A stretch of DNA of 11,196 nucleotides from a virus (taxonomy: Duplodnaviria; Heunggongvirae; Uroviricota; Caudoviricetes). The stretch covers positions 1 to 11,196 of the IMG/VR virus record IMGVR_UViG_2541047814_000003; one strand, 5' to 3'. Position numbers and translations under genes: made by a program. Below are positions 4,396-4,480 of this stretch, in pieces. Each line of letters begins with the position of its first letter. The first letter of the stretch is position 1. The notes below the pieces were generated by a model. It was given only the letters and a program-made list of their open reading frames with translations, was not told where the DNA came from and searched no databases.

Positions 4396-4422
4396 AGTAA
4401 GAAATTCCTCTTTGACTTAAAA

Positions 4423-4480
4423 AATCATAACTGGATGTTCATCCAGTTATGATTATAATCATGATTGCATTTTGAGCAAT
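4423..4480 (-). promoter_or_regulatory. Candidate promoter of the head-gene operon overlapping a 15-bp-arm perfect inverted repeat (operator or leader hairpin)
   Basis: Inverted repeat AATCATAACTGGATG (4423-4437) / CATCCAGTTATGATT (4440-4454) with 2-bp spacer; palindromic GATTATAATC (4451-4460) gives TATAAT on both strands; minus-strand TTGCTC (4474-4479) 16 bp upstream; minus-strand TTTT follows the repeat, then SD AAAGAGGAA and ATG 4395. Confidence 0.45.

What the first reader, a model, noticed from the sequence alone, without database searches (positions are those of the whole stretch)
4412..4480. Long perfect inverted repeat overlapping the head-operon promoter
A 15-bp-arm inverted repeat (4423-4454) overlaps a palindromic TATAAT and on the minus strand is followed by TTTT, SD and the first head gene. 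It could be an operator for a helper- or satellite-encoded regulator, or a leader terminator requiring antitermination (analogous to Q-dependent late control in lambdoid phages). Either would tie head-gene expression to helper late functions.
Basis: partly seen in the sequence, partly recalled or inferred. Interest (0 to 1): 0.5.

Follow-up and report, generated by a model that had tools for sequence, protein, structure and literature searches.

The report
Likely LexA (SOS) operator in PICI
The long palindrome is real, and its conserved core looks like a binding site for the host DNA-damage repressor LexA placed on the promoter of a four-gene operon in an E. coli phage satellite, which would link that operon to the SOS response rather than to helper-phage late regulators.

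Summary
The window is an EcCICFT073-type phage-inducible chromosomal island (PICI) of E. coli. The perfect inverted repeat (4423-4437 / 4440-4454) is confirmed. On the coding (minus) strand it starts inside a TATAAT -10 hexamer and lies upstream of the c1498-c1501 homologs (68-aa ORF, lambda E-like capsid homolog, lambda D-like decoration homolog, 137-aa ORF).

Its central 20 bp, AACTGGATGAACATCCAGTT, fits the E. coli LexA box (CTG-N10-CAG). It scores inside the range of validated boxes and shares both hexamers with the ruvA box.

In 125 gene-selected related loci the CTGGAT...CAG core is essentially invariant. The outer arm positions drift, and only 28 of 125 loci keep perfect arms. One variant breaks the stem while moving towards the LexA consensus. 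Salmonella and Pluralibacter relatives keep the box, whereas one deep lineage lacks it.

Best reading (confidence about 0.6): a host LexA operator over the transcription start, a Gram-negative counterpart of LexA control of SaPI operon I. The leader-terminator and helper-regulator readings are not supported.

LexA binding and SOS induction remain untested, and no relevant expression dataset was found.

The parts
4423..4454 (.). Perfect inverted repeat, 15-nt arms and 2-nt spacer (the finding)
   Evidence: fold z-score -4.2
4429..4448 (.). LexA-box-like 20-mer AACTGGATG(AA/TT)CATCCAGTT; the CTG-N10-CAG core is 4431-4446
   Evidence: Heterology index 6.98/7.43 against 0.6-12.8 for validated boxes left out one at a time. 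It is the best site in the window. About 1 random hit per 2 Mb. The core is conserved in 125 related loci.
4452..4457 (-). Predicted -10 hexamer TATAAT; its last 3 nt are the first 3 nt of the repeat on the sense strand
   Evidence: Read from the sequence. TATAAT is present in 124 of 125 box-bearing loci; TAAAAT in the box-less lineage.
4474..4479 (-). Predicted -35 hexamer TTGCTC (TTGCAC or TTGCAT in most relatives), 16-nt spacer
   Evidence: Read from the sequence and the alignment. It matches only 3 of 6 consensus positions, so the consensus scan did not list it.
4464..4480 (.). Second conserved dyad ATTGCA-N5-TGCAAT over the -35 and spacer region; candidate site for another regulator
   Evidence: conserved in all lineages, including those without the LexA-like box
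4419..4424 (-). T6 run in the 5' leader; 2 nt lie inside the arm and 4 follow it
   Evidence: kept in the box-less lineage
4406..4411 (-). Shine-Dalgarno AGAGGA, 10 nt before the ATG at 4395
   Evidence: Read from the sequence; conserved
4189..4395 (-). First gene of the unit, 68 aa (c1498 homolog), function unknown
   Evidence: No Pfam or PDB sequence match. AF2 model pLDDT 73, with no fold match.
3134..4189 (-). Lambda E-like major capsid protein homolog (c1499 homolog)
   Evidence: Pfam Phage_cap_E, E = 2e-52
2787..3122 (-). Lambda D-like head decoration protein homolog (c1500 homolog)
   Evidence: Pfam HDPD, E = 2.5e-17
2361..2774 (-). 137-aa ORF (c1501 homolog), last gene of the co-regulated unit
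   Evidence: CFT073 RNA-seq block c1498-c1501
4557..4627 (-). Two tandem intrinsic terminators after the PerC-family gene, insulating the promoter from upstream transcription
   Evidence: Stem 4557-4570/4582-4595; terminator 4627..4610; conserved

Best explanation
The conserved 20-bp centre of the palindrome (4429-4448) is an SOS box, an operator for the host LexA repressor.

**Shown from the sequence:**
- It spans about -3 to +17 of a sigma-70 promoter (TTGCTC-16 nt-TATAAT; the +1 is predicted).
- That promoter drives the c1498-c1501 homolog operon of an EcCICFT073-type PICI.

**Inferred mechanism:**
- A LexA dimer bound there blocks RNA polymerase in undamaged cells.
- DNA damage activates RecA, LexA cleaves itself, and the promoter is released.
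- The same signal induces lambdoid helper prophages, so the operon would switch on with, or ahead of, helper induction. This would be independent of the helper-dependent AlpA switch that controls the rest of the island.

**Why the arms are so long (inferred):**
- The 5-6 bp beyond the LexA box on each side are not under the same constraint.
- They arise where the box abuts two separately conserved elements, the -10/discriminator TATAATCA and the leader TTATGATTTTTT.
- They may have been perfected by quasi-palindrome template switching.

Other inputs also act on this promoter (temperature; a second conserved dyad at the -35).
For: 1. **Match to the LexA box.** The format CTG-N10-CAG is present, and both hexamers (CTGGAT...ATCCAG) are identical to the ruvA box CGCTGGATATCTATCCAGCA listed in PMC3009722 Table 4.
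2. **Score.** Heterology index is 6.98-7.43 with a matrix of those 18 boxes. Validated boxes left out one at a time score 0.6-12.8 (ruvA 8.5, cho 7.9, recA 7.4). The next best site in the window scores 11.6. One random hit appears per 2 Mb. Without ruvA and cho in the matrix the site still scores 7.5, with 0 random hits per 2 Mb.
3. **Position.** It overlaps the -10 hexamer and the predicted +1, the usual place for a repressor.
4. **Conservation in gene-selected relatives.** 125 of 136 relatives of the family carry a box at this place, with index 5.2-9.2 and CTG, GAT, AT and CAG invariant.
5. **Diagnostic variant.** The only substitution inside the 16-bp core, ATCCAG to ATACAG (6 loci, 3 sequence backgrounds), breaks a mid-stem pair but moves towards the consensus ACAG (index 5.95).
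6. **Drifting flanks.** The pair just outside the 20-mer is a G·A mismatch in 74 of 125 loci. Only 28 of 125 loci have perfect arms.
7. **Deep lineages.** The box is kept in three of four deep lineages (64-70% capsid-homolog identity, about 30% promoter divergence), including Salmonella. In Pluralibacter a complete box sits 16 nt further downstream, which looks like site turnover.
8. **Promoter strength.** Box-bearing promoters have TATAAT; box-less ones have the weaker TAAAAT.
9. **Separate unit.** c1498-c1501 behave as their own transcription unit in CFT073 RNA-seq. The module boundary lies just upstream of the promoter.
10. **Precedent.** SaPI operon I is controlled by LexA (Ubeda 2007, cited).
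Against: - There is no direct evidence of LexA binding or of SOS induction. I found no transcriptome of an SOS-induced strain that carries this operon. The two EDL933 datasets turned out to concern a different capsid module.
- The transcription start is predicted, not mapped.
- One deep lineage, also found in E. coli, lacks the box, so it is not essential for the operon.
- The outer arms show some compensatory changes (T-A, C-G and G-C at one pair). A 20-bp LexA site alone does not explain these.
- The temperature response of the operon is not SOS-linked (sulA, dinI and umuD are flat), so other regulators act here.
- A LexA-like site near alpA in related islands scores well on my index, yet alpA is reported not to respond to SOS. 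A good index alone is therefore not proof.
Confidence: 0.6

Rival explanations
1. The palindrome is an operator for a different dimeric DNA-binding protein. Candidates are satellite-encoded proteins (for example the 68-aa first gene product, AlpA or the PerC-like protein) or a helper-phage protein. This protein would recognise the whole 32-bp palindrome or its CTGGAT half-sites.
For: - The palindrome extends beyond 20 bp.
- Outer-arm complementarity has been restored in some lineages (L040, L041, L057 group). Covariation is slightly above shuffles.
- The first gene's N-terminus, with a strand followed by two helices in the AF2 model, is compatible with a small ribbon-helix-helix-like DNA binder.
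Against: - The conserved positions are exactly the LexA-critical ones. The outer arms are mismatched in most loci.
- No other half-site copies occur in the island, and none occur in phages.
- The 68-aa protein has no detectable DNA-binding family or fold match.
- The 68-aa protein is conserved in the lineage that lacks the palindrome. There the other conserved dyad (ATTGCA-N5-TGCAAT) would be the better candidate site.
Confidence: 0.15
2. The element works as RNA. It would be a hairpin plus U-run in the leader that terminates or attenuates transcription coming from an upstream start (for example the TTCATA-18-TATCAT candidate at 4508..4479, or read-through from perC). Alternatively it would be a 5' stem-loop that stabilises the mRNA.
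For: - The consensus scan flags it as terminator-like (14 pairs, loop of 4, T-run).
- The hairpin is strong (-17 kcal/mol; z = -4.2).
- In Pluralibacter the relocated palindrome again abuts the T-run.
- Weak covariation is present.
Against: - The -10 hexamer overlaps the left arm, so the adjacent promoter's transcript keeps only a 5-bp stem (-3.9 kcal/mol) that is 8 nt from the U-run.
- The stem base next to the U-run is A-U rich.
- 97 of 125 loci carry at least one non-Watson-Crick pair (mismatch or G·U wobble) in the arms. Stability ranges from -22 to -9 kcal/mol.
- The ATACAG variant breaks the stem centre.
- In Salmonella only a 6-bp stem remains, separated from the U-run.
- The T-run and SD persist in the hairpin-less lineage.
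- Two good terminators already lie upstream.
- No Rfam family matches at threshold.
Confidence: 0.12
3. The perfect long palindrome has no function of its own. It is a quasi-palindrome perfected by template-switch mutation in AT-rich promoter DNA, and the resemblance to a LexA box is coincidental.
For: - Perfect arms occur in a minority of loci.
- Changes on both arms appear together (L040), and a centre inversion GAAC to GTTC occurs (L047). These are typical of template switching.
- One lineage does without the palindrome.
Against: - The 16-bp core is invariant across 125 loci and three deep lineages while the neighbouring positions vary.
- A LexA-grade match is expected about once per 2 Mb or less.
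Confidence: 0.08

Closest known systems
E. coli ruvAB SOS box (CGCTGGATATCTATCCAGCA) and other chromosomal LexA operators
   Same: The format is the same, CTG-N10-CAG. The CTGGAT/ATCCAG hexamers are identical. The heterology index is comparable. Like many SOS boxes, the site overlaps the promoter and start region.
   Different: The site lies on a mobile phage satellite and controls capsid- and decoration-like genes, not repair genes. The central 4 nt and the flanks differ. It is embedded in a longer 32-bp palindrome. LexA binding has not been demonstrated.
LexA control of SaPI operon I (Ubeda et al. 2007, Mol Microbiol 65:41; cited in PMC6739421 and PMC6092414)
   Same: In both, a phage satellite places a post-replication module (packaging/morphogenesis in SaPIs, capsid- and decoration-like genes here) under the host SOS repressor, separately from the satellite's master switch.
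   Different: The host is Gram-negative, the LexA motif is different, and the master switch is the activator AlpA rather than the repressor Stl. The genes are unrelated. RppA (c1503), the known interference and packaging gene, appears to lie outside the co-regulated block. This is an analogy, not homology.
Other mobile elements that use host LexA (my own recollection, not checked here): colicin operons, coliphage 186 tum, CTXphi, integron integrases. Phage GIL01 with LexA and gp7 is documented in PMC4551915 (listed).
   Same: A host LexA operator on a mobile-element promoter is used as a DNA-damage sensor.
   Different: None of these is a Gram-negative PICI. The genes controlled here have no known function.
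Lambdoid Q-dependent late control
   Same: A hairpin plus T-run lies between a promoter and structural-type genes.
   Different: The hairpin overlaps the -10 hexamer rather than lying downstream of a start site. It is not conserved as a structure. No helper-dependence is seen in CFT073 expression.

Membership tests
Gammaproteobacterial LexA (SOS) box | 16-bp core CTG-N10-CAG within a 20-bp near-palindrome related to TACTG(TA)5CAGTA | tested here: met
   CTGGATGTTCATCCAG at 4431-4446; the consensus is quoted in PMC6590174
Gammaproteobacterial LexA (SOS) box | Heterology index within the range of experimentally established boxes and well separated from background | tested here: met
   Index 6.98-7.43 against 0.6-12.8 for leave-one-out boxes; 0-1 random hits per 2 Mb. 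The matrix was built from the 18 boxes of PMC3009722, not from the original Lewis 1994 matrix.
Gammaproteobacterial LexA (SOS) box | Located so that bound LexA occludes a promoter (-35 to about +20) | tested here: inconclusive
   The site overlaps a conserved TATAAT and the predicted +1, but the start site has not been mapped. No TSS data were found for this locus.
Gammaproteobacterial LexA (SOS) box | Conservation of the LexA-critical positions in orthologous promoters | tested here: met
   125 loci and 22 distinct sequences; the core is invariant apart from one consensus-ward change; the box is present in three of four deep lineages.
Gammaproteobacterial LexA (SOS) box | LexA binds the site (EMSA, footprint or ChIP) | not testable with these tools
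   No binding data were found in the literature searched.
Gammaproteobacterial LexA (SOS) box | recA/lexA-dependent induction of the downstream genes by DNA damage | not testable with these tools
   No SOS transcriptome was found for a strain carrying this operon. The EDL933 datasets concern another module.
Rho-independent (intrinsic) terminator or attenuator | Stable stem-loop followed at once by a U-run | tested here: met
   The scan flags it. MFE is -17.3 kcal/mol in the window. However, the stem base next to the U-run is A-U rich.
Rho-independent (intrinsic) terminator or attenuator | The whole hairpin is transcribed from the relevant promoter | tested here: inconclusive
   From the adjacent -10 only 5 bp of stem would be transcribed. 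An upstream start cannot be excluded without TSS mapping.
Rho-independent (intrinsic) terminator or attenuator | The structure is maintained in relatives, with compensatory changes and hairpin adjacent to the U-run | tested here: not met
   97 of 125 loci have at least one non-Watson-Crick pair (mismatch or G·U wobble) in the arms. Paired cells are 92.6% against 91.6% in shuffles. The main covarying pair is unpaired in 10 of 19 sequences. The Salmonella stem is 6 bp and detached from the U-run. The T-run is kept without any hairpin in the box-less lineage.
EcCICFT073-type Gram-negative PICI (context) | int, AlpA-type regulator, primase-replicase, cos site and Rpp/Nu1-like gene, at the chromosomal site next to phoQ | tested here: met
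   99.8-99.9% identity to CFT073 and strain 181.1 over 4100-4900; annotation; Pfam D5_N primase, PerC, SSB, Phage_Nu1; cosN. Only 4100-4900 was compared directly. The int ORF lies about 1 kb nearer than collinearity with CFT073 or strain 181.1 would predict, so the int-proximal part differs; I did not examine how.

The most novel reading that the evidence does not exclude
Gram-negative PICIs of the EcCICFT073 type would have a second regulatory input that does not depend on the helper. Host LexA would directly gate the capsid- and decoration-homolog operon, so the satellite senses DNA damage itself, in parallel with the helper-dependent AlpA switch. This would be a convergent re-invention of the SaPI operon I arrangement. 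A further conserved dyad at the -35 would add a third, unidentified regulator.
Probability: 0.45. Interest if true: 0.5.

Novelty: new member of a known kind. Interest (0 to 1): 0.4.

Why it matters
- **What would be new:** a LexA operator on an internal operon would show that these satellites also read the host damage signal directly, as SaPIs do. That would be a case of convergent regulatory logic.
- **A practical handle:** c1498-c1501 are conserved in hundreds of E. coli genomes yet have no known phenotype. Knowing when they are expressed would help in finding what they do.
- **Engineering relevance:** EcCICFT073 derivatives have had c1498-c1501 replaced by cargo (PMC10460865), so the native promoter and operator matter for such designs.

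Tried and rejected
1. **EDL933 data withdrawn.** I first took the ciprofloxacin RNA-seq and proteome (capsid gene -1.8-fold) and the EDL933 antibiotics RNA-seq as evidence against SOS induction. Fetching the EDL933 locus showed that CP-933C carries an HK97-type capsid, protease and portal module with an unrelated upstream region. Both datasets are irrelevant here.
2. **Genome collection searches.** The search for related loci in genome contigs, with one protein and then with an alignment, returned nothing. The viral and metagenome collections worked.
3. **Ribbon-helix-helix idea for the 68-aa protein.** No Pfam hit even at E = 10, no PDB sequence hit, an AF2 model of moderate confidence, and no Foldseek PDB match with E < 1. 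Inconclusive.
4. **Helper late-promoter similarity.** No phage record shares the region.
5. **Known RNA families.** Nothing near a gathering score.
6. **Mapped start sites.** The EDL933 Cappable-seq supplements have no entry for the locus tags tried, and EDL933 lacks this cassette anyway.
7. **Temperature induction as a proxy for SOS.** Rejected, because sulA, dinI and umuD are unchanged in the same data.
8. **Terminator-like hit at 2287-2302 as the operon's terminator.** Reinterpreted as cosN.

Full report
**What the window is.** Positions 4100-4900 are 99.8-99.9% identical to E. coli CFT073 and strain 181.1. There the region is annotated as the island between phoQ and an integrase. This is EcCICFT073, a characterised Gram-negative phage-inducible chromosomal island (PMC6092414, PMC6739421).

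All island genes lie on the minus strand:
- integrase;
- D5-type primase, 7681..5849;
- an SSB homolog;
- a PerC-family gene, 5018/4898..4650;
- two tandem terminators, 4557-4627;
- an AT-rich gap of 31-34% GC;
- a 68-aa ORF, 4395..4189 (c1498 homolog);
- a lambda E-like capsid homolog, 4189..3134;
- a lambda D-like decoration homolog, 3122..2787;
- a 137-aa ORF, 2774..2361;
- cosN, 2289-2300;
- a Nu1-like gene, 2155..1613, which is the counterpart of RppA/c1503.

**The observation.** The repeat is exactly as described: arms 4423-4437 and 4440-4454, 15 nt each, perfect, 2 nt apart. It is far beyond chance (about 5e-5 expected in 11 kb by simple arithmetic; fold z-score -4.2, 0 of 200 shuffles as stable).

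On the sense (minus) strand the order is:
- -35 TTGCTC, 4479..4474;
- a 16-nt spacer;
- -10 TATAAT, 4457..4452;
- the repeat, 4454..4423;
- TTTT;
- SD AGAGGA, 4411..4406;
- ATG at 4395.

The -10 hexamer shares its last three bases with the repeat.

**What the core is.** The centre reads AACTGGATGAACATCCAGTT, that is CTG-N10-CAG. I built a heterology-index scorer from the 18 E. coli LexA boxes listed in PMC3009722 Table 4.
- The site scores 6.98 (minus strand) and 7.43 (plus strand).
- The validated boxes, each left out in turn, score 0.6-12.8 (ruvA 8.5, cho 7.9, recA 7.4, polB 12.6, dinG 12.8).
- The next best site in the window scores 11.6.
- A site this good occurs once in 2 Mb of composition-matched random sequence.
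- With the two CTGG-type boxes (ruvA, cho) removed from the matrix, the site still scores 7.5, with no random hit in 2 Mb.
- Both hexamers, CTGGAT and ATCCAG, are identical to those of the ruvA box.

**Comparative test.** I collected relatives through the genes, not through the palindrome:
- E. coli genomes from 98% down to 71% identity;
- contigs encoding diverged homologs of the 68-aa protein;
- loci found with a capsid-homolog alignment in viral and metagenome collections.

Of 139 upstream regions long enough to score, 125 carry a LexA-like box at the same place (index 5.2-9.2). Eleven belong to one box-less lineage. Three are remote capsid genes outside the family. Among the 125 there are 22 distinct -10-to-SD sequences.

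The variation is informative:
- CTG, GAT, AT and CAG never change.
- The single core substitution, ATCCAG to ATACAG (6 loci, 3 backgrounds), destroys a mid-stem base pair yet moves the half-site to the consensus ACAG. The index improves from 6.98 to 5.95.
- Most other variation lies in the flanking positions of the 20-mer and in the outer arms; the rest is in the central bases of the box.
- The pair just outside the 20-mer is a G·A mismatch in 74 of 125 loci.
- Only 28 of 125 loci have the perfect 15-bp arms seen in this window.

The four deep lineages are about equally distant from each other (64-70% capsid-homolog identity, about 30% promoter divergence). Three of them have the box:
- the E. 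coli type;
- a Salmonella element (GACTGGATAAATATCCAGAT);
- a Pluralibacter element, where a complete box (AACTGGATGTTTGTCCAGTT) sits 16 nt further downstream, next to a remnant left half-site. This looks like binding-site turnover.

The box-less lineage keeps the promoter, T-run and SD, but has TAAAAT in place of TATAAT.

**Hairpin or terminator reading.**
- Pair counting over the 15-bp stem gives 92.6% paired cells against 91.6% in shuffles. The covariation score is reached by 4 of 500 shuffles. The tool's own notes say unstructured but related sequences often reach this level.
- Some compensation does exist at one outer pair (T-A, C-G, G-C). The same pair is unpaired in 10 of 19 distinct sequences.
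- Full-hairpin stability ranges from -21.8 to -9.1 kcal/mol across variants.
- A transcript started 7 nt after the -10 would contain only a 5-bp stem (-3.9 kcal/mol), 8 nt away from the U-run.
- In Salmonella only a 6-bp stem remains, detached from the U-run.
- The T-run is conserved where no hairpin exists.
- Two good terminators already precede the promoter.
- No Rfam family matches at threshold.

I therefore rate the RNA reading low. An upstream start, such as the TTCATA-18-TATCAT candidate, cannot be excluded without start-site mapping.

**Why the arms are so long.** The left outer arm is the end of the -10 plus the discriminator (TATAATCA). The right outer arm is part of the leader (TTATGATTTTTT). 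Related forms of both, AATCAT and TTATG, exist in the box-less lineage. Part of the extra complementarity therefore comes from placing a palindromic operator between two independently conserved elements.

Two observations suggest a mutational process as well. Changes on both arms appear together in L040, and the centre is inverted in L047. These are what template switching in quasi-palindromes produces. That link rests on established knowledge and is an inference here.

**Expression evidence.**
- In CFT073 shifted from 23 to 37 °C, c1498, c1499, c1500 and c1501 rise together (log2FC 2.24, 2.05, 1.45, 1.17, all significant). The primase, ssb, perC and c1503 do not change significantly (PMC12890032 supplement). 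This supports a separate transcription unit that starts at this promoter and ends before cos and rppA. It also shows activity without deliberate helper induction.
- sulA, dinI and umuD are flat in the same data, so that response is not SOS. Another input exists; H-NS-type silencing of the AT-rich promoter is one possibility, and that is inference.
- I found no SOS dataset for a carrier of this operon. The EDL933 data that I first read as contrary concern a capsid-forming PICI with a different module. Its sequence diverges from this window immediately after the first terminator. That also shows that the promoter, box and operon travel together as one cassette.

**Literature.** None of the PICI papers read mentions LexA at this promoter. 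alpA is reported to be helper-dependent and SOS-independent. [quoted passage not shown]

**Rival regulators.**
- No other copy of the half-site or the palindrome occurs in the island.
- No phage shares the region.
- The 68-aa first gene product looked ribbon-helix-helix-like by eye, but it has no family, sequence or fold match.
- A second dyad, ATTGCA-N5-TGCAAT over the -35 (4464-4480), plus an upstream TTGCAA, is conserved in every lineage including the box-less one. It is the better candidate site for any satellite-encoded or other regulator.

**Verdict.**
- The best-supported mechanism is a host LexA operator over the start of the c1498-c1501 promoter (confidence about 0.6). The sequence match and the conservation pattern are shown. 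LexA binding, SOS induction and the transcription start are inferred.
- This would be a new member of a known kind, namely LexA-gated promoters on mobile elements, and an analogue of SaPI operon I.
- Interest is moderate.

Noticed in passing
window 4464-4480 and 4492-4497: A second dyad, ATTGCA-N5-TGCAAT (ATTGCT on one side in this window), overlaps the -35 and spacer, and a palindromic TTGCAA lies about 14 nt upstream. Both are conserved in all lineages, including those without the LexA-like box. They may bind another regulator; the TGCAA repeats recall CytR half-sites, from memory only.
   Followed up: partly
window 2289-2300 (minus strand): An exact GGGCGGCGACCT lies between the c1501 homolog and the Nu1/Rpp-like gene. 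I recall this as the lambda cosN cohesive-end sequence. The consensus scan had flagged this spot as terminator-like. Only one copy is present in this window, whereas EcCICFT073 is reported to have two cos sites (PMC6092414).
   Followed up: partly
L001 13451-13470 (CFT073), L018 14223-14242 (strain 181.1), L145 41699-41718 (EDL933): LexA-like 20-mers lie in the int-alpA intergenic region of related islands: TACTGTTTTTTTATACACTG in CFT073 and strain 181.1 (CAC replaces the invariant CAG), and TACTGGTTTTTTATACACTA in EDL933. My index scores them 5.0-5.7. This window has no such site. alpA is reported not to be SOS-inducible, so these are either non-functional or need a second signal.
   Followed up: partly
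window about 4600-4610; L145 47833-48124: This is a module-swap boundary. EDL933 CP-933C shares int through perC and the first terminator with this island type, then carries an HK97-type capsid, protease and portal module (a capsid-forming PICI) instead of the c1498/E-like/D-like cassette. Other O157:H7 strains (FRIK2069, TW14359, EC4115) carry the E-like cassette.
   Followed up: yes
window 4906-5319 (minus strand): The SSB homolog has an in-frame stop after codon 80. The downstream frame still reads through to the typical SSB C-terminal DDIPF tail. It is therefore probably a pseudogene in this strain; CFT073 annotates an intact 411-nt gene.
   Followed up: partly
window 835-958, 1058-1111 and 1146-1268; also 307-343 and 539-575: Diverged direct repeats of 37-60 nt (80-98% identity, spacings of 185-311 nt) lie in the mostly non-coding left end of the island. 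They might belong to the cos/cosB-like or attachment region.
   Followed up: no
window 2361-4395 (c1498-c1501 homologs): In CFT073 these four genes are induced 2- to 5-fold by a 23-to-37 °C shift as a block, without any change in SOS genes (PMC12890032 supplement). The promoter lies in a 31-34% GC trough, which is compatible with H-NS-type thermoregulated silencing.
   Followed up: partly
L047, L040, L041, L057 (promoter variants): Natural variants show an inverted centre of the palindrome (GAAC to GTTC) and changes on both arms that appear together and restore perfect arms. These look like products of hairpin-templated (quasi-palindrome) mutation.
   Followed up: partly
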